Assembly (NCBI GenBank): GCA_000217635.1
Contig: CP001817.1
Coordinates: forward strand, 1-32,000
DNA: 32,000 nt
From: Candidatus Saccharimonadota bacterium
GTDB lineage: Bacteria > Pseudomonadota > Gammaproteobacteria > Enterobacterales > Enterobacteriaceae
Direction of reading: 5' to 3'
The position numbers and the translations under genes are program-made. Under the pieces are notes generated by a model. The model had not been told where the DNA came from. It saw nothing but the letters and a program-made list of their open reading frames with translations, and made no database searches. How positions within the stretch are numbered: position 1 is the first letter of the stretch; every line of letters starts with the position of its first letter. Positions 1-21,070 of this stretch are shown here, one piece after another.

Positions 1-1938
1 ATGGGAAATCAGATTCAGAAAACGACAGTGATTGTGGTAGGTGGCGGGCATGCTGGTACAGAAGCTGCCTATGCATCTGCTCGTATGGGGGTTAAAACGC
101 TATTAATAACTCAAAATATTAGTACGGTAGGAGCGCTTTCTTGTAATCCTTCTATTGGAGGTATTGGTAAAAGTCAATTAGTAAAAGAGATTGATGCTAT
201 GGGAGGTTTAATGGCTCTTGTGGCTGATTATTCAGGGATACAATTTAAAATCCTTAATTCTAGCAAGGGAGCTGCAGTTCGTTCTACACGTGCTCAAGTT
301 GATAGACAGTTGTATAAGAAAAATTTACAATATTTTTTAAAATTACAAAAAAATCTTCAGCTAATTGAAGCTGAAGTTTCTGATCTTATTATTAAAGATA
401 GAATTGTGCGTGGAGTTAAAGTAAATGATAACTGTGTTATTTTAAGTCGATCAGTGATATTAACCACTGGGACTTTCTTAAATGGAAAAATATTTACTGG
501 TTTAAAAGAACATTTAGGAGGACGTATCTATGAAAAACCTTCGAATCTATTAGCAAATAAATTAAAAAATTTTCCGTTTCGTTTTGGTCGTTTAAAAACC
601 GGAACACCACCAAGATTATTAGGTAGTAGTATTAATTTCCAATTGTTAGAAGAACAGAAAGGTGATTCTCCGGTCCCATTTTTTTCTTTTTTAGGATTTA
701 ATATCAATCATCCTGAACAAATTCCTTGTTATATGACATATACAAACGATTGTACACATTCGATAGTTCGTTCTAATTTAAATTTTAGTCCTATGTATAC
801 AGGTTCTATTGTTGGTTTTGGGCCTCGGTACTGCCCTTCTATAGAAGATAAGATTGTTCGTTTTTCAAAAAAAATAGACATCAAATTTTTTTTAGAGCCG
901 GAAGGATTGGATTGCAAGGTTTATTATCCTAATGGTATATCAACAAGTTTACCTTTATGTATACAAAAAAAATTTATAAAAACTATAGTAGGTCTAGAAA
1001 ATGTTGAAATTACTCAGCCAGGTTATGCAGTAGAGTATGATTATTTTGACCCGCGGGATTTAAAAATGACCTTAGAATCTAAAATTATAAAAAATTTATT
1101 TTTTGCAGGACAGATTAACGGAACTACTGGATATGAAGAAGCTGGGTCTCAAGGTTTATTGGCAGGAATCAATGCTGCGCTTTATGTTTTAGAAAAAAAA
1201 CCGTGGTATCCGCGTAGAGATGAGGCTTATATGGGTGTTTTAGTGGATGATTTATGTAATAAAGGTACTACTGAACCATATCGTATGTTTACATCTCGTG
1301 CAGAGCATAGATTGCTTTTGAGAGAAGACAATGCAGATTTTCGTTTAACAAAGATTGCTTATAAATTTGGTTTGATATGTCAAAATAGGTGGAAACGTTT
1401 TTGTGATAAAAAAAATTTTATTGCTGATGAGCATAGATTTTTAAAAAAAAGTATAATTTCAAAAAATAAATTAGATGCATATTGTACTAATAATAATATT
1501 TCAATTAGGATTTCTAGTGATATTACTGCTTTTGATTTTTTACGTAGACCAGGCATTTCTTATGGATTTATTATGAATTTATTAAATCGACCGATGAGTT
1601 TTTTATTAAAAAATTCAGAAGATATTGTTGAATTAGAAGCACAAATAAAATATTCAGGTTATATAATTAGACAAAAAATAGAAATTGAAAAACAAAAAAA
1701 ATTTGAATCAGTTAAATTACCTGTCAATTTAAACTATAAAAAAGTACCAGGTTTATCTAATGAGGTTTATATAAAATTAAATGAGTATAAACCGATCACT
1801 TTAGGACAGGCATCTCGTATATCTGGAATTACCCCAGCTGCAATTTCTATTTTATTAATTTTTTTAAAAAGAATGGTATTTTATTTTTTAATATTTACTT
1901 TAACTTTAATAAAAAATATACTATATTATATGGTATAA
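1..1938 (+). CDS. mnmG: tRNA uridine 5-carboxymethylaminomethyl modification enzyme MnmG (GidA)
   Basis: 645-aa ORF starting at ATG at position 1. It has the FAD-binding motif [10 protein letters not shown] and is colinear with E. coli GidA throughout ([41 protein letters not shown]). The last ~22 codons do not align with GidA; see the finding on the A5 tract at 1866-1870. Confidence 0.95.
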
Positions 1939-2089: not shown

Positions 2090-4567
<2,478 letters not shown>

Positions 4568-4625: not shown

Positions 4626-5732
4626 TTATAGTCGTAAAGGCATAATTACGTAATAAATATTTTTTTCTTCTAACGATTGAATTTGAATTTTTACAACAGG
4701 AATATCTAAAATAAAATAAATAATTTTGCTTGCTAAAGTATTCAAAACATCTAGTAAATAGAATACATTAATAGAAAATTCAATTTTTTTATTATTATAT
4801 TGAATTTTAAAGGAATCTGAAGATTCTTCGTCTTCTTGATTGTTTGATCGTATTTGTAATAGATTATTATAAAATTTTAAGTATATTCCTTTAAAATTAA
4901 TATCACATAAAATAGAAGTACGTAATAAAGATTTTTTTATTTGTGTAAGTGGAATTGGAATTCGTTGCATAGGGTTAATTAAGATAACATCTTGATAATC
5001 AGGAAATTTTCCATCTATTAATTTAGTAATAAGTATTATATTTTTAATATAAAATAAAATTTGGTTTTGATTGATAAAGATTCGTATTAGATCTTCTTTT
5101 TCTTCTAATAATTGATATAATTCAATAATGCTTTTTTTACTTAAAATTATTGAAAATGAAGTGACTTTGATATTTATTTTTTTCTTATACATTGCTAAAC
5201 GATGACCATCTGTAGCTACTCCATATAAATAACCATTATGGTACTCTAATAATAAACCGTTTAAAGAGTTTCGGATATCATGATTAGCTATAGAAAATCG
5301 AGTAAAAAAAATTATTTTTTTAAGTAAATTTTGTGATATGTTAATCTCGTTTTTTTCAGAATTTTTTTGAAATTTTGGAAAATTTTTTATAGACAATGTC
5401 ATTAAATAAAAAATAGTATTTAATATTTGGATTTTTATTTTTTTATTAACTAAATGAAAATTTAAGTTAGTGTCTTTAGGTGCATTTCGACAAATATGTA
5501 ATATTTTTTTTCCGGAAATACTAATATTACCTGATTGAAAAAATTGGTAGTTTTTATGGTGTATAGAAATATTCATTTCGACTTCTAAATTAGATGCTGT
5601 TAAATATAGTCTTTTTTGATTTACATCTATTATGATATTTTCTAAAATAGGAAAAATAGGATTTTTTGTAATTACATTAATAATTTTTTTGATATATGGT
5701 AATAGTATTTCTTTTTTTATGATGAATTTCAT
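4626..5732 (-). CDS. dnaN: DNA polymerase III beta sliding clamp
   Basis: 368-aa ORF colinear with E. coli DnaN (366 aa): MKF..., ATDGHRLA, KLIDGKFPDYQ, and C-terminal YVIMPLRL. It lies immediately downstream of dnaA, as in the conserved dnaA-dnaN operon. No recF follows it. Confidence 0.95.
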   Translation of the reverse strand: MKFIIKKEILLPYIKKIINVITKNPIFPILENIIIDVNQKRLYLTASNLEVEMNISIHHKNYQFFQSGNISISGKKILHICRNAPKDTNLNFHLVNKKIKIQILNTIFYLMTLSIKNFPKFQKNSEKNEINISQNLLKKIIFFTRFSIANHDIRNSLNGLLLEYHNGYLYGVATDGHRLAMYKKKINIKVTSFSIILSKKSIIELYQLLEEKEDLIRIFINQNQILFYIKNIILITKLIDGKFPDYQDVILINPMQRIPIPLTQIKKSLLRTSILCDINFKGIYLKFYNNLLQIRSNNQEDEESSDSFKIQYNNKKIEFSINVFYLLDVLNTLASKIIYFILDIPVVKIQIQSLEEKNIYYVIMPLRL

Positions 5733-5762
5733 AGTATTATGAGGTTAATTGATAAGATAAAT

Positions 5763-7112
5763 TTAAAAAATCATGATGAATTTTTTTATTTTTTTAGATA
5801 ATTCTTTTATTTTTCTGCAAGCATGTAGTACGGTGGTATGATCTTTTCCACCAAATGCGATACCGATTTCTGACAAGCTGTGGTTAGTCAATTTTTTTAC
5901 TAAAGCCATAGCTATTTGTCGAGGTTGTGCTATTGATCGTGTTCTTTTTTTTGATAACATATCTGACATTTTTATACTAAAATATTTAGATACTGATTTT
6001 TGAATGTTCTTTATCGTTATTTTTTCTTTTTGACAAATTAATAAATCTTGCAAGGTACTTTGAACGAGTTCTATATTAATATTTTTTTGATTAAATATAG
6101 AGTGGTTTTGAAGTTTATTAAGAATACCTTCTAATTCTCTGACATTCGAACATAATTTTGTTGCTATGAATTGAGCTATTGTATAAGATAACTTTATTTT
6201 TCTTTCTGCCGCTTTATATAATAGAATAGCTATTCTAGTATTTAAGTCAGGTGGGTTAATTGAAATAGTTAATCCCCAGCTAAACCGTGATTTTAAGCGA
6301 TCCGCCATACCATTAATATCTTTTGGATAACGATCTGAAGTTAAAATGATTTTTTGGTCGTGATCAAATAAGGTATTAAAAGTATGAAATAATTCTTCTT
6401 GAGACCGCTCTTTATTAGAAAAAAATTGAATGTCATCTATCATTAATGCATCTACAGATCGATAATATTTTTTAAATTCTTCAATAGAATTATTTTTTAT
6501 TGATTTTACCATATTTGCACAAAAACGTTCGGAATGGATATAAATAACTTTTGCAGTATTGTTATTTTCTAAAATAAAATTTCCAATAGCGTGTAAAAGA
6601 TGGGTTTTTCCTAAACCAGTATTTCCATATAAAAATAATGGATTATATGAATTTTTAAGTTTTGCTAGCTGATAAGAAGAATATCGTGCTAATCGATTTG
6701 ATTCTCCTTCAATAAAATTATTGAAACAGTATTTTTTATTAATTTCTGTATGATAATATGATTTTATATAGTGAATATTATAGTTAAAATGTTTTTTGTG
6801 TATTTTTTGTTGATTTATTATATTATATTTTGAGTAATAAGTATGAGTAGTAATTAAATGATCAGTAGAAATATTTTCAATTTGTAAAGTTAATGGAATA
6901 TTTTTTTTTTTGACCAAATTTATATAATAAATTTTTAAAATAGTGTATATACTTGTTTTTAACCCAATCCAAGACAAAATGATTTGGTGCAAATAAATAT
7001 AGAGAATTTTTTTTGATTTCACTCGCAGTGGACGAATCCACATACTAAATTCTGTAGGTAAAAGTTTTTTTTGTAAATGAGTAAGACATTTTTTCCAAAT
7101 TGCAAGAGACAC
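5763..7112 (-). CDS. dnaA: Chromosomal replication initiator DnaA (open ORF, but ~36 codons of domain I are read out of frame between two poly(A) tracts)
   Basis: 449-aa ORF with a GTG start, as in E. coli. It has the N-terminus [10 protein letters not shown]...[13 protein letters not shown]+ motifs ([37 protein letters not shown]) and the domain IV motif [15 protein letters not shown]. The conserved APNxFVLDWV block is encoded in a different frame between 7014 and 6901 (see finding). Confidence 0.95.
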
Positions 7113-8080: not shown

Positions 8081-9721
8081 ATGAGAATATCTATGATTAA
8101 CTGTCGATATTATGGTCGATTATTGTTATTATTTTTGTTGTTTTTTTTGTATTTTTATAGGTTTTTTTCAAAAAAAAGTATTTATATTAGTAAAAAAAAT
8201 AGTGTTTTTCATGAATATATAAAAAATTTTTCTAAAATATCACCAGATCAAGAAAAATCTCAATTAATTAATGTAAAAACCGATGTTCTATCCTTAGATA
8301 TTAATTTATTAGGCGGTAATATTGAATGCGCCGAATTATTAAATTATAAAAAAAGTCTAAATAGTTCAGAGTTTTTTACATTATTAAATAATAAAAAATT
8401 TTTTTATAAAACTAATAGTGGAATTCTTGTTAAAAAGAATTCTAATCATATCGGAAAAAATAGTAAGATTTTTTATTTTGTTTCATCTGTTATAAATAAA
8501 TTAAAAGAAAATCAAAATAAAATAAAAGTTTGTTTAACTTCTCGTGAAAAAAATGGGATTTCTCATAAAAAAGTTTTTATTTTAACGAGAGGATCATATG
8601 CAGTAGAAATAAAACATTATATTTTTAATCGTACCAATAAAACAATTGATGTAGTAGTATTTGGAGAATTACAACAAAACCCTGCGCTAATTAAAAGTTA
8701 TAATATCTTACAGGGTTTGTTTAATTTACAGATGTTTAGAGGCATTTCATATTCAACAGATGCTAATAAATATGTTAAAGTAAGTTTTAATAAGTTAAAA
8801 GATATTGTAGATGTTGTTGTGAAAACTACCCAAGGATGGATAGCAATGCAACAGCAGTACTTTTTAACTGCTTGGGTACCAAAATTTTCGAGTAGTTATA
8901 CAATTTATCTACATAAAATATTTGATTATTTTATATCTATTGGTTTTTTGTCTGATAATAAAAGAATTGCACCTCATTCATCTTATGTAACTTCTTCTAC
9001 GATTTGGATAGGACCAAATTTACAAAAACATATTTCTTTATTATCTAAAAATACCAGTTGTATGATGGATTATGGATGGTTATGGTTTATTTCAAAACCA
9101 TTATTTCAATTATTAAGTTTTTTTTATAATATATTTAAAAATTGGGGTATTTCTATAATACTAATTACATGTTTTATAAAAACAATGACATATTCATTAA
9201 CAAAATCACAATATTTAGCAACGATAAAAATAAAAACTTTACAACATAAAGTAGAAGCTATAAAAGAAAAATTTTTTAATGATACTGAAAAAATCCATAA
9301 AGAAATATTATTATTATATAAAAATGAAAATATTAATCCATTAAGCGGGTTTATGCCAACTTTAATTCAAATGCCTATTTTTTTAGCATTATATTACGTT
9401 TTAATCTCTGCAATTGAATTAAGACATGCACCATTTTTATGGTGGATTCAAGATTTATCTAGTTATGATCCGTATTTTATATTACCACTTTTAACAGGTT
9501 TTAGTATATTAGGTATGCAAATTAGTAATGAAGTAAATCAAGAATCTTTACCGGATAATAAATTTCTTATATTTTTTTCTGTTTTATCATCGTTATTTTT
9601 TTTATGGTTTCCAGCTGGTCTTGTTTTATATTATCTCGTTAATAATGTGGTTACTATTATTCAACAACATTTTATAAAAAAATTTTTTGTCAACAATATA
9701 GATAAAAAGTATAATACATAA
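8081..9721 (+). CDS. yidC: Membrane protein insertase YidC
   Basis: 546-aa ORF colinear with E. coli YidC (548 aa): VKTDVL, RGSYAVE, GWIAMQQQYF, DYGWLWFISKPLF, IQMPIFLALYY, FFLWFPAGLVLYY. The start could instead be the ATG at 8093. Confidence 0.93.
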   Translation: MRISMINCRYYGRLLLLFLLFFLYFYRFFSKKSIYISKKNSVFHEYIKNFSKISPDQEKSQLINVKTDVLSLDINLLGGNIECAELLNYKKSLNSSEFFTLLNNKKFFYKTNSGILVKKNSNHIGKNSKIFYFVSSVINKLKENQNKIKVCLTSREKNGISHKKVFILTRGSYAVEIKHYIFNRTNKTIDVVVFGELQQNPALIKSYNILQGLFNLQMFRGISYSTDANKYVKVSFNKLKDIVDVVVKTTQGWIAMQQQYFLTAWVPKFSSSYTIYLHKIFDYFISIGFLSDNKRIAPHSSYVTSSTIWIGPNLQKHISLLSKNTSCMMDYGWLWFISKPLFQLLSFFYNIFKNWGISIILITCFIKTMTYSLTKSQYLATIKIKTLQHKVEAIKEKFFNDTEKIHKEILLLYKNENINPLSGFMPTLIQMPIFLALYYVLISAIELRHAPFLWWIQDLSSYDPYFILPLLTGFSILGMQISNEVNQESLPDNKFLIFFSVLSSLFFLWFPAGLVLYYLVNNVVTIIQQHFIKKFFVNNIDKKYNT

Positions 9722-13846: not shown

Positions 13847-13870
13847 GATTTGCATATTTAGGATTTTTTT

Positions 13871-14444
13871 ATGCCATCTTTTTTTGGTAGTAATTTAAAA
13901 ATAGGAAATAAAATTTTAATTAAAAAAACCATATGAAGTGTTACATCGAGAATTTGTTAAACCAGGAAAAGGACAAGCATTTGTTCGGTTAAAAATTAGA
14001 GAATTATTAACAGGAAAATTATTATTAAAAACCTTTAAATCTACAGATACTTTTTTATTAGCAAATATAACTGTCATTGATGTTCTTTTTTTATATAAAG
14101 ATATAGATGGGAAATCGTGGATATTTATGAATCAAAATACATTTAATCATATATCTGTTCATCAAGATAAATTATTTGGTTCTGAAAAATGGTTATTTAA
14201 TAATATTCAATGTACAATAACTTTATGGGATAATATTCCAATTATAGTTCGGGTATCTAATTTTATTCATCTAGAAGTAAAAGAAGTTGAATTATCTGTA
14301 AAAGGTGATACGATAAATGTATCGAGTAAACTTGTAAGATTAGTGACAGGCACTAAGATTCGAGTTCCTTTATTTATACAAAAAGGAGATTTTATAAAGA
14401 TAGACACAAGAGCAGGTATTTACATATCCCGTTCCATTATATAA
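13871..14444 (+). pseudogene. efp: Elongation factor P, interrupted by a frameshift in an A7 tract (possibly rescued by slippage, or an assembly error)
   Basis: ATG at 13871 gives MPSFFGSNLKIGNKILIKKTI*, which aligns to E. coli EF-P residues 1-19. The rest of the protein (PYEVLHREFVKPGKGQAF... to 14444) continues in the +1 frame immediately after aaaaaaa (13922-13928). Removing one A gives a 190-aa EF-P (E. coli 188 aa). The ORF track shows only the 168-aa 3' part, from GTG at 13938. Confidence 0.85.
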
Positions 14445-14490: not shown

Positions 14491-15189
14491 TTAGTATTCA
14501 TGTCCTGTGATATTTTTTCTATAACTACTCCAGTCAAATGTTAACCATAAACTATGTCCTAATCGCATTCTATCAATAACGCGTTCACCTAATAGTTTTT
14601 TTATTCCAAAATAATCTAAATTGGATAACATTCCGGTAGATTTTTTTGTAGATGATCGTCTATCTATTATTTGGTTAATAATAATTTTTTCATATCGTGA
14701 TTTTATTTGCACTCCAATTTCATCAATTATTAATAGATCTACTTTACATAATTTGTGAATTAATTCTTCTTCTGTAGTTTTACAAGAACTACTAAATGTT
14801 TTTTTTATAGAAGACATTAGGTCTGCAACTGTAATAATTAATACACTATTACCATTTAAAATTAAATAATTTCCAATTGCTGCAGCTAAGTGATTTTTTC
14901 CTGTTCCTGGATTTCCGGAAAAAATAAAATTAGCTATACTATTTTTAAATTTTTTGCATATTTTTGAGAAGCTTGTAAAGCTTTTTTGTGACCTGCATGT
15001 TTTTATATTATAATTTTCAAATGAACAATTAATATATAATTCTCGAATTCCTGATCGTCCTAAAATTTTTTGCATTTTCATTGCCTGATTATTACGTAAA
15101 ATAGATATAGAGGATATTTGTCCTTGTTGTTGATTCCATAATAATAAATCTTTATCATTATAAAATTTTGGTGTGATATAGTGCGGCAT
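14491..15189 (-). CDS. dnaC: DNA replication protein DnaC (helicase loader)
   Basis: 232-aa ORF colinear with E. coli DnaC from its residue ~15 onward: MPHYITP vs MPAHIKP, RSGIRELYINCSFENY, the Walker A motif FSGNPGTGKNHLAAAI, DLLIIDEIG, and the C-terminal RMRLGHSLW...TGHEY. A possible 11-codon N-terminal extension from ATG 15221 lies in another frame (see finding). Confidence 0.9.
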   Translation of the reverse strand: MPHYITPKFYNDKDLLLWNQQQGQISSISILRNNQAMKMQKILGRSGIRELYINCSFENYNIKTCRSQKSFTSFSKICKKFKNSIANFIFSGNPGTGKNHLAAAIGNYLILNGNSVLIITVADLMSSIKKTFSSSCKTTEEELIHKLCKVDLLIIDEIGVQIKSRYEKIIINQIIDRRSSTKKSTGMLSNLDYFGIKKLLGERVIDRMRLGHSLWLTFDWSSYRKNITGHEY

Positions 15190-15559
15190 TATATTTTTTA
15201 GTTTTTTAAAAAATTTTTCATATATTTTATATTTTTCTATAATATTTTTATGAAATATTAATAAATATTTTTTAAAAATATATAGATCCTATATGTAATA
15301 AATATATATTTTTATAAAAATTAAATAGTCTTTAGTATCTTTTTTTATAATTTTTATTATATATATTAAGAATAGATTAAGTAAACAATAGATTTTTTAT
15401 TATATTAATATTAATATTAAGATGTATAAGTGAGTTTAACAAAATAATTTATTTATATGATATAATAAAAATATTATAAATTAATTTTATTTAAAATATT
15501 TTATGGGTGTTTTTTATTTCTTATGATACTTTCATAAAGTATGTATTTTATTTTTTACC

Positions 15560-16123
15560 TTAATTACAAATAAATAATGTACATATAACATTACCAATTT
15601 TTTTTTTTTTATTAAAGTCCAATTATGATTTAATTTTTTTTTATAAATTTTTTACATTGTTCAATATAAATAATAGATTTTTTATGTAACCAATTATTTT
15701 TTTTAATAATATAATGGTATTTTTTAATAATTTAAAATCGTGAAATGGAGGATCTAAATATATAATATCAAATGGTTTTCCGTTTTTTTTTAACCACGTT
15801 ATAGTGTCTGTATTAAATGTTAATACTGAATTAATTGAAAAATTTTTGATAGTATTAAGAAGTGCGTAGAATAATTTTTTGTTTATTTCTAGTGCTGTTA
15901 CTGAATGCGCTAAACGAGAAATTGATTCAATACTTAAATTACCGCTACCAGCAAAACAATCTAAACAATTTTTGTTCTTTATGTAGGGATTTAACCAATT
16001 AAATAGTGTTTCTTTTACACGATTTCCTGTAGGTCTGATATTAAAATTTTTTATAGAATGTAATACTCGACCGCGAAATATACCACTTATAATGCGAATT
16101 CTTTTTTTATATTTATTTTGCAT
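15560..16123 (-). pseudogene. rsmD: 16S rRNA m2G966 methyltransferase RsmD (YhhF), broken at three successive poly(A) tracts
   Basis: The 160-aa ORF (16123-15641) carries RPTGNRVKETLFNWL, the SAM motif LDCFAGSGNLS and DPPF. After LLKK the RsmD alignment continues only by changing frame at A8 (15697-15704), A9 (15634-15642) and A13 (15598-15610). This gives NNWLHKKSIIYIE... / LNHNWTLIKKKK / IGNVICTLFICN*, compared with E. coli NGWLADEALIYVE...ANWSLHREKVAGQVAYRLYQRE. Confidence 0.8.
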
Positions 16124-16176: not shown

Positions 16177-17225
16177 TTGGGTATTAAAAAAAATTTTTTT
16201 TTGAAATGGATTAATTTTAAAAAAAAGATTCTAAATCTACAATTTGTCAGTCAAATCAAAAAAAAAATATAAAAAATTCTGTTTTTTCTATATTATCAGA
16301 AAATAAAATTATAAATAAGTTAAAAGATTATTTTATAAATACAAAAAAAATATTTACAGAAAAAATAAATAATATTTTTTTTAAAAAATCATTAAATCAA
16401 GAAACATTTAATGATATAGAAAAATTATTATTATTATCTGATTTTGGAATATCTACTACAGAAAATATTCTTTTAAAATTTAAAAAAAAAATAGATATTA
16501 ATAGGGTAACAGATCCAAAGAAAGCAATTTTGATTTTTAAAAATCAATTATTAAATATTCTAAAAAAAGTTAATTCAATTCCATTAACTGATAATTTTAC
16601 TTCTTTTCCTCATATTATTTTAGTAATAGGTGTTAACGGTGTTGGAAAAACTACAACTATTGCAAAATTAGCATATTATTATAAAACGCATGGTAAATCA
16701 ATAATGTTATCTGCAGGTGATACATTTCGAGCAGCAGCAATTGATCAAATACTTATATTAGGTAAAAAATATGAGATCCCTGTTTTTTCAAAACCTTTTG
16801 GAACAGATCCGGCTTCTGTGATATTTGATTCGATTCGAGAAGCCAAAAATAAAAAATCAGATATATTAATAATAGACACAGCAGGACGTTTGCATAATAA
16901 ATCGCATTTATTACAAGAATTAAAAAAAATTTCTCGTATAATAAAAAAATTTGATATATCAGCTCCTCATGAAGTAATTTTAGTTCTTGATGCGTGTATT
17001 GGTCAAAACTCTATTCAACAAACTAAATTATTTCATAAAAATGTTCCAATTAGTAGTATTATTATAACTAAATTGGATGGTACAGCTAAAGGAGGGATTA
17101 TCTTTTCTATCATAGATCGATTTAAAATTCCTATATGTTTTATCGGGACTGGAGAAAAAATTACTGATTTAAAAAAATTTAATAATGAATTATTTATTAA
17201 TGAATTTTTTAAAACTGAATTATAA
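16177..17225 (+). pseudogene. ftsY: Signal recognition particle receptor FtsY, with a frameshift in a poly(A) tract near the 5' end (possibly rescued by slippage, or an assembly error)
   Basis: TTG at 16177, with Shine-Dalgarno aagga at 16164-16168, gives MGIKKNFFLKWINFKKK..., matching the E. coli FtsY N-terminus MAKEKKRGFFSWLGFGQK. This frame stops at 16270-16272. The N and G domains (FNDIEKLLLLSDFGISTT..., GVNGVGKTTTIAKLA, DTAGRL, TKLDGTAKGG) are in the -1 frame, which is open from 16221 to 17225. The overlap region contains A8 (16219-16226) and A10 (16258-16267). Confidence 0.85.
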
Positions 17226-18794: not shown

Positions 18795-21070
18795 ATGAAT
18801 ATTAAAAATCATATACTCGGGTTTCCTAGAATTGGTTTGCATCGTGAGCTAAAGTTTGCTCAAGAGAATTACTGGTCTGGAAAATCTACCTTAAATGAAC
18901 TTTTATTAGTAGGAAAAGATATAAGAAAAAAAAATTGGGAATTACAAGTTAAAAATGGTATAGATATTGTTCCGGTGGGTGATTTTTCGTGGTATGATCA
19001 TATATTAAATACAAGTATGATGTTAGGAAACATACCAGAAAGACATTGTTGTAATCAAGAAATGCCAACTATTGATACTTTATTTCGTGTTGCGCGAGGA
19101 GTAAATTCAACTGAAGATACATGTTCTGCTTCAGAATTGACAAAATGGTTTAATACAAATTATCATTATATAGTACCAGAATTAAAAAAAATAAAATTTA
19201 AATTATCTTGGATGCAGATTTTTGAAGAATGTGATGAAGCATTATCATTAGGATTTACAATTAAACCGGTATTAATTGGACCGATAACATATCTTTGGTT
19301 AAGTAAAATTGTAGGTGAAGATTTTGATAAATTAGATTTACTTGATGATTTATTACGAGTGTATTGTGATATATTAAGTGAATTTAAAAAAAGAAATATT
19401 AAATGGGTGCAAATAGATGAACCAATTTTAACATTAGATTTACCTTCTGTATGGAAAAAATCTTTTAAAAAAGCTTATAATTATTTACATGGGGAACAAA
19501 AGATTTTATTAACCACCTATTTTGGTGATATAAAGCATAATTTTGATATTGTTAAATTATTACCAGTTGATGGTTTACATATTGATTTGGTATCTGGAGA
19601 ATATAATTTATTTGATTTAAATAGATATATTGATAAAAATACATTACTTTCATTAGGTATAATTAATGGGCGTAATATTTGGCGATCTAATATTTTAGAA
19701 TGGTTTAATATTTTGCAATCTTTTATGAATATTAGAGATACTTTTTGGATAGGTTCGTCTTGTTCATTATTACATGTTCCAATAGATATTAATGTTGAAG
19801 ATAATTTAACTGATCTTGTTAAGCAATGGTTTTCTTTTGGATTACAAAAATGTAAAGAGTTATCATTATTATCTAATATTTTAAATAATCAACATAAATC
19901 TACAAGCCAATTAAAAGAATGGATTAAACCAATAGCATCACATCAGTCATCTACATTAGTTAATAATTTTATTGTGCAAAAACGTGTTATGAATATTTCT
20001 TCTAAAGAAACAAAAAGAAATAGCTCGTATGCGGTTCGTTCTATAGAACAAAAAAAATCTTTAAAATTGCCTATTTTACCTACCACAACAATTGGCTCTT
20101 TTCCTCAAACATCAGATATCAGAAAATTACGTTTAGATTATAAAAATAATCATATTAGCCAAGATGATTACAATAAAAAATTAAATTACATATTAAAAAA
20201 TATTATTATACAACAGGAAAAATTTGGTCTTGATGTATTGGTTCACGGAGAACCAGAACGTAATGATATGGTAGAATATTTTAGTGATTATTTAGAGGGA
20301 TTTGTTTTTACAAATTATGGTTGGGTACAAAGCTTTGGTTCTCGTTGTGTAAAACCACCAATTATAGTGGGTGATATAAATCGTATTACACCAATAACAG
20401 TGCCATGGTCTGAATATGCGCAGTCTTTAACTAATAAACCCGTTAAAGGTATGTTAACTGGACCTGTGACTATTTTATGTTGGTCTTTTCCGCGTGAAGA
20501 TATATCAAAAGAAATAATTGCTAAACAAATTGCTTTAGCATTACGTGATGAAGTGAAAGATTTAGAAAGTATTGGCATTAAGATTATTCAAATTGACGAA
20601 CCAGCATTAAGAGAAGGTTTGCCATTACGTCAATGTCAATGGGATAATTATTTAAAGTGGGCAATAGAATCATTTAAATTATGTTCTTCAGGTGTTAAAG
20701 ATAGCACACAAATTCATACACATATGTGTTATTGTAAGTTTAATGATATTATGTCAGCTATTAGTTCATTAGATGTAGATGTAATTACAATTGAAACTTC
20801 TAGATCGGAGATGGAATTATTAAAATTTTTAAAAAATTTAATTATCTTAATGAAATTGGTCCTGGGGTTTACGATATTCATTCTCCAAATATTCCTACAG
20901 TAAAATGCATAGAAAAACGTTTATTAATGGCGTTAAAATTTATTTCTAAAGAAAGATTATGGGTTAATCCAGATTGTGGTTTAAAAACTCGTACTTGGTT
21001 AGAAACTTCATTATCACTACAAAATATGATACAAGCTGTACAAAATATTCGTAAAAATATTAATAATTAA
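18795..21070 (+). pseudogene. metE: Cobalamin-independent methionine synthase MetE, with a frameshift in an A6 tract 56 codons before the end (possibly rescued by slippage, or an assembly error)
   Basis: The 702-aa ORF (18795-20903) is colinear with E. coli MetE up to ...[17 protein letters not shown]. After aaaaaa (20831-20836) the alignment continues in the +2 frame: [22 protein letters not shown]...[15 protein letters not shown]... to TAA at 21068-21070. One extra A gives 758 aa (E. coli 753 aa). Confidence 0.88.

What the first reader, a model, noticed from the sequence alone, without database searches (positions are those of the whole stretch)
6901..7014. dnaA: compensated double frameshift hides a scrambled domain I inside an intact-looking ORF
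The 449-aa ORF reads [54 protein letters not shown]. This has no similarity to DnaA between the flanking conserved blocks.

The -1 frame of the same DNA, between the A8 tract (7007-7014) and the A11 tract (6901-6911), reads [35 protein letters not shown]. That aligns without gaps to E. coli [33 protein letters not shown]. One extra A in A8 plus one fewer A in A11 recreates a fully colinear DnaA.

As written, about 36 residues of domain I are replaced by out-of-frame sequence. These include the equivalent of E. coli Phe46, which has been implicated in DnaB loading. No stop codon appears, so ORF-based annotation would not flag it.
Basis: partly seen in the sequence, partly recalled or inferred. 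Interest (0 to 1): 0.72.

Follow-up and report, generated by a model that had tools for sequence, protein, structure and literature searches.

The report
Probable sequencing-error frameshifts in Buchnera dnaA
The hidden double frameshift in this aphid symbiont's replication-initiator gene is really in the deposited sequence. However, it is one of about fifteen such single-base slips in the same 32 kb, so it is most likely an error in an old genome record, not biology.

Summary
The window is Buchnera aphidicola from Cinara tujafilina (the as-written 449-aa DnaA equals the database protein). Between A8 (7007-7014) and A11 (6901-6911) the annotated frame is unrelated to DnaA. The -1 frame reads [16 protein letters not shown]..., as in three relatives and E. 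coli.

It replaces the last 19 residues ([15 protein letters not shown]) with FIMIF*.

The pair is not special to dnaA:
- Frameshift-aware alignment finds further compensated pairs in gyrB and dnaC, with weaker candidates in yidC and a second gyrB site.
- Uncompensated shifts occur in efp, rsmD and metE, and possibly ftsY.
- None occur in rpoB/C, groEL, the rpl genes or other well-conserved genes.

All hidden frames are intact and as conserved as the rest of each gene. Substitutions inside the scrambled stretches still fall on third positions of the hidden frame. None of the shifts is shared by relatives, and some lie in runs too short for slippage.

My verdict is record-level indel errors, probably from pyrosequencing. 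The ORFs may have been kept open by curation, or only ORF-preserving errors escaped checking. The true gene would be a colinear 458-aa dnaA. A real scrambled domain I is not excluded (about 10-15%); only reads can settle it.

The parts
5763..7112 (-). dnaA ORF as written (449 aa, GTG start); identical to the deposited BCt DnaA protein
7007..7014 (-). A8 tract. The record is 1 nt short here relative to the DnaA frame and to three relatives; A9 restores the frame
6912..7006 (-). Stretch read out of frame as written (ILYIYLHQ...INLV). Its -1 frame is DnaA domain I ([33 protein letters not shown]) and includes the equivalent of E. coli F46
6901..6911 (-). A11 tract preceded by C. The record has 1 nt too many here; C+A10 restores the frame. 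L001 has A11 in frame without the C
5781..5795 (-). A7-T-A7. A third 1-nt deficit lies in one of the two A7 runs and gives the as-written C-terminus [10 protein letters not shown]
5737..5781 (-). Hidden C-terminal coding stretch [14 protein letters not shown] plus TAA (5737-5739), 4 nt before the dnaN ATG at 5732. It is identical in nucleotides to L001 across 5735-5781
2341..2405 (-). gyrB compensated pair: A8 at 2398-2405 (1 nt short) and A7 at 2341-2347 (1 nt extra). Hidden frame [21 protein letters not shown] matches L001 at 17/21; the as-written frame matches at 5/21
2538..2579 (-). Probable second gyrB pair: A8 at 2538-2545 is short versus A9 in L001, plus an offset in the A6 runs 2565-2579. 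Hidden KYTYSIKK versus L001 KYSYTIKK. Weaker evidence
14942..15004 (-). dnaC compensated pair: A5 at 15000-15004 (1 extra) and A6/T3 at 14947-14955 (1 short). Hidden KHAGHKKALQASQKYAKN matches L001 at 13/18; the as-written frame matches at 2/18
15194..15213 (-). dnaC 5' end: 1 nt short in the T6/A6 runs relative to three relatives. This puts a stop after the ancestral ATG, so the open ORF starts at 15189
8141..8177 (+). Probable yidC compensated pair: T8 at 8141-8148 (1 extra versus T7 in two relatives) and just after A8 at 8170-8177 (1 short). Hidden FFCIFIGFFQKKV versus L001 FFCFFINIFQKNV. The region is poorly conserved
13922..13928 (+). efp: uncompensated shift at A7. N-terminal MPSFFGSNLKIGNKILIKKTI* is in one frame, and PYEVLHREFVKPGKGQ... 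(to 14444) is in another
15598..15704 (-). rsmD 3' part: two to three 1-nt deficits, at A8 15697-15704, A6 15648-15653 and A13 15598-15610. The as-written ORF is 160 aa versus 189-192 aa in relatives
20822..20836 (+). metE: 1-nt deficit in A4-T5-A6. The last roughly 73 codons ([21 protein letters not shown]...NPDCGLKTR...) are open in another frame, ending near 21058

Best explanation
The deposited Buchnera aphidicola BCt sequence carries many single-base length errors in A/T runs, and the dnaA 'compensated double frameshift' is one instance of them. The real gene most likely has A9 at 7007-7014, C+A10 at 6901-6911 and one more A in 5781-5795. It would then encode an ordinary colinear 458-aa DnaA with domains I-IV.

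Shown:
- The shifts exist in the record.
- They are specific to this record among four related genomes.
- They recur across many genes of the window.
- Every hidden frame is intact and under the same constraint as its surroundings.

Inferred:
- The cause is base-calling of homopolymers in a pyrosequencing-era assembly.
- ORFs stayed open for one of two reasons. Either someone restored a broken ORF by editing the nearest run before the stop, or only those errors that did not visibly break an ORF escaped checking.
For: (1) The as-written protein equals the public BCt entry, so the window is that record.

(2) I aligned proteins from three relatives to the window with a frameshift-aware method (penalty -14). 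The relatives are L001, L011 and Tuberolachnus Buchnera L012. All three give the same seven events: dnaA x3, gyrB x2, dnaC x2. efp (against L001), rsmD (against L011 and L012) and metE (against E. coli) add more. The same procedure between relatives gives 0, 1, 0, 4 and 0 events, all in yidC.

(3) Identity of the hidden frame to L001 is 30/34 (dnaA), 17/21 (gyrB) and 13/18 (dnaC). Gene-wide identities are 81-86% (dnaA; tblastn, BLASTP), 81% (gyrB) and 80% (dnaC). The as-written frames score 4/34, 5/21 and 2/18.

(4) BCt/L001 differences inside the three scrambled stretches fall at codon positions [7, 5, 27] of the hidden frame. In the rest of the genes they fall at [168, 86, 412]. On the BCt branch only, the counts are [5, 3, 10] versus [79, 37, 149]. 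So there is no sign that the written frame has ever been the selected one.

(5) Downstream frames of the uncompensated shifts stay open: metE for about 73 codons and efp for about 165 codons, in a window of about 26% G+C.

(6) At least 14 events hit about 8 of 22 genes in 32 kb. If all were real, the load would be too heavy for an obligate symbiont.

(7) One-base deficits outnumber excesses (roughly 10 to 4). The same region holds one 9-mer in BCt against nine in L001.

(8) A published comparison table gives BCt 918.7 against 963-982 for eight other Buchnera, and 393 CDS against 366 in BCc. I read that column as mean gene length. This is what genome-wide truncated or split ORFs would produce.

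(9) The same laboratory sequenced C. tujafilina DNA on 454 FLX. It later polished a 454 assembly from that aphid with Illumina reads. Its 2011 SCc genome used 454 plus Sanger joins only.
Against: No reads or independent assembly of this strain could be reached, so the tract lengths are not directly refuted.

The paper describing the BCt genome is not in the library. The sequencing platform is therefore inferred from sister papers and my own recollection.

Several events lie in short runs (A4/A5, T3/T4, T5/T6), where pyrosequencing consensus errors are uncommon.

Compensation in three to five gene segments needs an extra assumption: curation, or survivorship of ORF-preserving errors.

Real indels in A runs are the commonest inactivating mutation in Buchnera, as stated in PMC5574713.
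Confidence: 0.8

Rival explanations
1. The two indels are real and fixed in BCt. A first -1 in A9 truncated DnaA, and a +1 in the next long run (A10 to A11) restored the downstream frame. The cell would then live with a DnaA whose domain I is scrambled over about 36 residues and whose C-terminal helix is replaced.
For: The off-frame stretch has no stop. With event 1 alone, the first stop falls 6 codons after the second tract, so a +1 there is the natural rescue site. Homopolymer indels are the main mutational route in Buchnera. Some insect endosymbionts do without dnaA altogether (my own knowledge).
Against: The hidden frame shows no relaxation: 30/34 identity to L001 and third-position-biased substitutions. 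The same would have to be true at once for gyrB, dnaC, yidC, efp, rsmD and metE, and all events would have to be very recent. Three relatives have none of them.
Confidence: 0.07
2. The indels are real, but expression is corrected. RNA polymerase slippage or ribosome sliding on the poly(A) runs adds one A at A8 and drops one at A11. This would resemble the poly(A)-tract frameshifts reported in Buchnera and Blochmannia.
For: Both sites are A runs. A AAA AAA is a classic slippery heptamer. Insertions in A/T runs dominate transcription errors in Buchnera, and their rate rises with run length.
Against: Two independent corrections are needed in one molecule, plus a third at A7, so the yield would be the product of small rates. 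A transcriptome-wide survey in Buchnera found no case of a transcription error restoring a frame (PMC5574713). Other events in the window sit in runs of 3-6 nt, where slippage is negligible. There is no stimulatory RNA structure after either tract (z -1.0 and +0.45). The frameshifts are not conserved in relatives, unlike the maintained Blochmannia cases (my own knowledge).
Confidence: 0.05
3. Tract lengths are polymorphic among the many genome copies and cells pooled for sequencing. The consensus froze a mixture of minority or intermediate calls that no single chromosome carries.
For: Buchnera is highly polyploid and the DNA came from pooled aphids (the polyploidy is my own knowledge). Long A runs mutate fast.
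Against: This does not explain the events in short runs, or why about 15 sites in 32 kb would all be polymorphic. In practice it still means the record does not represent a functional allele.
Confidence: 0.06

Closest known systems
Homopolymer-length errors of pyrosequencing (454) assemblies in AT-rich genomes
   Same: The indels are confined to A/T runs. One-base deficits predominate, many genes are hit, and the hidden frames are perfectly intact. The record dates from the 454 era and comes from a laboratory that used 454.
   Different: Several events are in short runs. Three to five events come as frame-restoring pairs, which calls for curation or survivorship on top of random miscalls.
Poly(A)-tract frameshifts rescued by polymerase infidelity in Buchnera and Blochmannia (Tamas et al. 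2008 PNAS; Wernegreen et al. 2010 MBE; my own knowledge, and cited as a proposal in PMC5574713)
   Same: The same clade, the same kind of site, and downstream frames that remain conserved.
   Different: Those are single shifts in long runs (about 9 nt or more), some conserved between lineages. Here the shift is paired, one run is only A8, it is not shared by three relatives, and it sits among shifts in runs far too short to slip.
Evolutionary compensated frameshifts (two nearby indels of opposite sign that leave an out-of-frame patch)
   Same: The same anatomy: -1 and +1 about 100 nt apart, with no stop in the patch.
   Different: A real patch should lose the codon-position signature of the old frame. 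Here it is undiminished, and the pattern repeats in several essential genes.
dnaX-type programmed -1 ribosomal frameshifting
   Same: An A-rich slippery heptamer in the A8 tract.
   Different: There is no downstream stem-loop. A second, opposite shift would be required, and the site is not conserved in relatives.

Membership tests
DnaA (bacterial replication initiator) | N-terminal domain I (Pfam DnaA_N) present over its full length | tested here: not met
   As written, only profile positions 2-35 of 65 match (31 bits). After the A9/A10 repair, positions 2-63 match (64.7 bits).
DnaA (bacterial replication initiator) | AAA+ domain III and DNA-binding domain IV | tested here: met
   The database entry for the as-written protein carries PF00308 and PF08299. 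It aligns to relatives at 81-86% identity. The last 19 residues of domain IV lie in another frame as written.
Poly(A) frameshift rescued by transcriptional slippage | Frameshift lies inside a long A run (about 9 nt or more) | tested here: inconclusive
   A11 qualifies. A8 and A7 are borderline or short.
Poly(A) frameshift rescued by transcriptional slippage | Frameshift maintained in related lineages | tested here: not met
   L001, L011 and L012 are all in frame at the homologous sites.
Poly(A) frameshift rescued by transcriptional slippage | Heterogeneous transcripts that restore the frame | not testable with these tools
   Needs cDNA sequencing.
Programmed ribosomal frameshift | Slippery site plus a stimulatory downstream structure | tested here: not met
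   The heptamer is present. Folding of the 3' flank is no better than shuffles (z -1.02 and +0.45).
Sequencing/assembly artefact (homopolymer miscalls) | Indels restricted to mononucleotide runs and specific to one record | tested here: met
   Nearly every non-3n gap inside genes relative to L001 lies at or next to an A/T run. The core events in dnaA, gyrB and dnaC are absent from three relatives, and between-relative controls give 0-4 events.
Sequencing/assembly artefact (homopolymer miscalls) | Many genes affected while hidden frames stay intact and constrained | tested here: met
   About 8 of 22 genes are affected.
Sequencing/assembly artefact (homopolymer miscalls) | Raw reads or an independent assembly give different run lengths | not testable with these tools
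   No second BCt sequence was found.
Sequencing/assembly artefact (homopolymer miscalls) | Record produced on an error-prone platform | tested here: inconclusive
   The BCt paper is not held. Sister papers from the same laboratory report 454 FLX on C. tujafilina DNA and a 454-only genome in 2011.

The most novel reading that the evidence does not exclude
The run lengths are real. In that case, Buchnera of Cinara tujafilina carries compensated frameshifts in dnaA, gyrB and dnaC, plus single shifts in efp, metE and rsmD. It would then either tolerate a DnaA with an unfolded domain I, or depend on routine double recoding (polymerase slippage or ribosome sliding on poly(A)) to make functional initiator, gyrase and helicase loader.
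Probability: 0.08. Interest if true: 0.75.

Novelty: not a real feature. Interest (0 to 1): 0.12.

Why it matters
If this is an artefact, the value is practical. A reference endosymbiont genome (CP001817 / NC_015662) that is used in comparative studies of gene loss seems to carry roughly one frame error per 2 kb in this window. Some of these errors are invisible to ORF-based checks. They distort protein sequences (DnaA, GyrB, DnaC, YidC). They could also be misread as truncation or pseudogenisation of efp, metE, rsmD and ftsY.

If the lengths were real, this would be a striking case of essential replication genes surviving scrambled segments or relying on expression errors.

Tried and rejected
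- Exact-protein look-ups of the as-written DnaA found no contig.
- The single genome-contig scan, using the repaired protein, returned only Arsenophonus, Providencia and similar genomes. It returned no Buchnera and not the source genome. Those loci served only as outgroups.
- An exact-match scan of JGI metagenome contigs for a BCt-specific 35-mer from the scrambled stretch gave 0 hits.
- The paper describing the BCt genome could not be read by DOI or PMC id. Papers citing it gave no sequencing details.
- Plain tblastn aligned straight through the scrambled stretch and hid it, so I wrote a frameshift-aware aligner. At a lax penalty (-9) it produces false positives between relatives, so only the -14 results are relied on.
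- I looked for RNA structure after the tracts as a recoding signal and found none.
- I asked whether the position of the +1 (the last long run before the first off-frame stop) separates curation from natural compensation. It does not.
- I considered a hard cap on called run length and rejected it, because runs of 10-13 nt are present in the record.
- Structure prediction of the scrambled domain was not run, because it would not separate artefact from biology.

Full report
**What is in the sequence**

The minus strand of 5763-7112 is an open 449-aa ORF. Between them the written frame reads [32 protein letters not shown]. The -1 frame reads [33 protein letters not shown].

Pfam DnaA_N matches the written N-terminus only over profile positions 2-35 (31 bits). 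The -1-frame piece alone matches positions 29-63 (E 5e-7). A sequence with A9 and A10 matches positions 2-63 at 64.7 bits.

The written one has 0/35.

**Source of the window**

The written protein is identical to the public entry 'chromosomal replication initiator protein [Buchnera aphidicola (Cinara tujafilina)]', from a 444,925-bp contig (P0001). The window is therefore the deposited BCt genome. Papers give its accessions as CP001817 and NC_015662. The annotation accepted the ORF as intact.

**Relatives**

- The nearest relative (P0002, 86% identity, ENA contig L001) reads [43 protein letters not shown]. That is the hidden frame.
- A four-way DNA alignment used BCt, L001, L011 (Logan) and L012 (Buchnera of Tuberolachnus salignus). 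At the first tract BCt is one base short relative to all three relatives. At the second tract it is one base long relative to L001 and L011; L012 is too diverged there to align.

In the A7-T-A7 stretch at 5781-5795, BCt is again one base short. As written, the protein ends ...[10 protein letters not shown]. With one more A it ends ...KK(N/I)[16 protein letters not shown], matching L001 ...[19 protein letters not shown] and E. coli ...DFSNLIRTLSS*. The stop would then lie at 5737-5739, 4 nt before the dnaN ATG.

**The pair is not special to dnaA**

A whole-region nucleotide alignment to L001 shows gaps that are not multiples of three inside several genes. Nearly all of them lie at or next to A/T runs.

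I then aligned relatives' proteins to the window DNA with a frameshift-aware dynamic programme (BLOSUM62, frameshift penalty -14). All three relatives return the same seven events:
- dnaA: about 7007-7016 (-1), 6912 (+1) and 5795 (-1).
- gyrB: about 2398-2410 (-1) and 2345 (+1).
- dnaC: 15003 (+1) and 14948 (-1).

Further events come from single comparisons:
- efp has an uncompensated shift at A7 13922-13928.
- rsmD has two or three deficits, and metE has one at 20822-20836. The metE shift leaves its last roughly 73 codons, including NPDCGLKTR, open in another frame.
- ftsY has an unclear 5' end.
- DNA alignments add a probable pair in yidC (8141-8177), a second probable pair in gyrB (2538-2579), and a deficit at the dnaC start.

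No events were found in rpoB, rpoC, rplK/A/J/L or rpoH against E. coli. None were found in groES/EL, dnaN, mnmE, mnmG, rnpA or rpmH against relatives.

As a control, the same procedure between relatives gives 0, 1, 0, 4 and 0 events, all in the poorly conserved yidC. The signal is therefore specific to the BCt record.

**Are the written frames ever used?**

Hidden-frame identity to L001 is 30/34 (dnaA), 17/21 (gyrB) and 13/18 (dnaC). That equals the gene-wide level. The written frames score 4/34, 5/21 and 2/18.

Nucleotide differences between BCt and L001 inside the three scrambled stretches fall at codon positions [7, 5, 27] of the hidden frame. In the rest of the same genes they fall at [168, 86, 412]. 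Restricted to the BCt branch, using L011 as outgroup, the counts are [5, 3, 10] versus [79, 37, 149]. The pooled pattern is clear. The BCt-branch counts are few and only consistent with it.

So there is no trace of relaxed or redirected selection. The shifts are either extremely recent or not in the organism.

**Why I favour a record error**

1. About 15 events hit about 8 of 22 genes in 32 kb. These include the initiator, gyrase, the helicase loader, the membrane insertase and EF-P. If real, all would have to be very recent at once.
2. Deficits outnumber excesses. The homologous roughly 14 kb has one 9-mer in BCt against nine in L001.
3. Several events sit in runs of 3-6 nt. Transcriptional slippage could not rescue those. 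A transcriptome-wide study in Buchnera found no frame-restoring transcription errors (PMC5574713).
4. A published table lists BCt at 918.7 against 963-982 in eight other Buchnera, in a column I read as mean gene length. It also lists 393 CDS against 366 in BCc. This is the expected result if many ORFs are truncated or split genome-wide (PMC10851558).
5. The same laboratory sequenced C. tujafilina DNA on 454 FLX and Titanium, and later polished a 454 assembly from that aphid with Illumina reads. Its 2011 SCc genome was 454 plus Sanger joins only (PMC4122931 and PMC3213167). My own recollection, which I could not check, is that BCt was pyrosequenced. The paper is not held.

**Why pairs?**

With only the upstream -1, the first off-frame stop falls 6 codons (dnaA) or 3 codons (gyrB) after the second tract. 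A curator who saw an ORF break next to the longest run would plausibly 'repair' it there, leaving an out-of-frame patch. Alternatively, only errors that happen to keep an ORF open escaped checking. Natural compensation would be subject to the same positional constraint, so this test does not discriminate. I treat the curation step as inference.

**Rivals**

The rivals are (a) real fixed compensated mutations, (b) real indels corrected by slippage or ribosome sliding, and (c) tract-length polymorphism frozen in a consensus. None is excluded without reads. Together I give them about 0.2. No stimulatory RNA structure follows either tract, and the shifts are not conserved in relatives. Both points argue against programmed recoding.

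**Limits**

I found no independent sequence of this strain, so the true run lengths are inferred, not observed. Some weaker events (yidC, the second gyrB pair, ftsY) rest on alignments in poorly conserved, low-complexity regions.

**Verdict**

The sequence feature is real in the record. It is probably not real in the organism. The likely true gene is a colinear 458-aa dnaA. Biological interest is low, but the result is useful as a flag on a reference genome.

Noticed in passing
window 5781-5795 and 5737-5781 (-): A third 1-nt deficit in dnaA, at A7-T-A7, replaces the conserved C-terminus [15 protein letters not shown] with FIMIF*. The DNA after the written stop is identical to L001 over about 47 nt.
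   Followed up: yes
window 2341-2405 and 2538-2579 (-): gyrB carries one clear compensated pair between poly(A) runs and one probable one. Both are in its variable C-terminal region.
   Followed up: yes
window 14942-15004 and 15194-15213 (-): The dnaC-like gene has a compensated pair in short runs (A5; A6/T3). It also has a 1-nt deficit that destroys the ancestral start region.
   Followed up: yes
window 13870-14444 (+): efp is split by a shift at A7 (13922-13928), and both parts are conserved. Relatives L011 and L012 have no efp between groEL and dnaC, so a real early pseudogene cannot be ruled out for this gene.
   Followed up: partly
window 20822-21058 (+): The metE ORF ends early as written (702 aa). 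The catalytic C-terminal roughly 73 codons are intact in another frame after a 1-nt deficit in A4-T5-A6.
   Followed up: partly
window 15598-15704 (-) and 16200-16270 (+): The 3' part of rsmD has two or three 1-nt deficits (160 aa written versus 189-192 aa in relatives). The ftsY 5' end (ATGGATTAA...) does not give a clean start, and its ORF is open only from about 16215.
   Followed up: partly
window 8141-8177 (+): The yidC N-terminal region shows a probable +1/-1 pair (T8, A8). The hidden frame FFCIFIGFFQKKV resembles L001 FFCFFINIFQKNV.
   Followed up: partly
whole window; L001: The spectrum of A/T run lengths drops sharply from 8-mers (60) to 9-mers (11). In the first 15.3 kb there are 33 8-mers and one 9-mer, against 26 and 9 in the homologous L001 contig.
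   Followed up: partly
window 1-1938 (+): mnmG (gidA) starts at base 1 of the window and is 645 aa, against 622 aa in the Tuberolachnus relative. No frameshift was detected, and the longer C-terminus was not examined.
   Followed up: no
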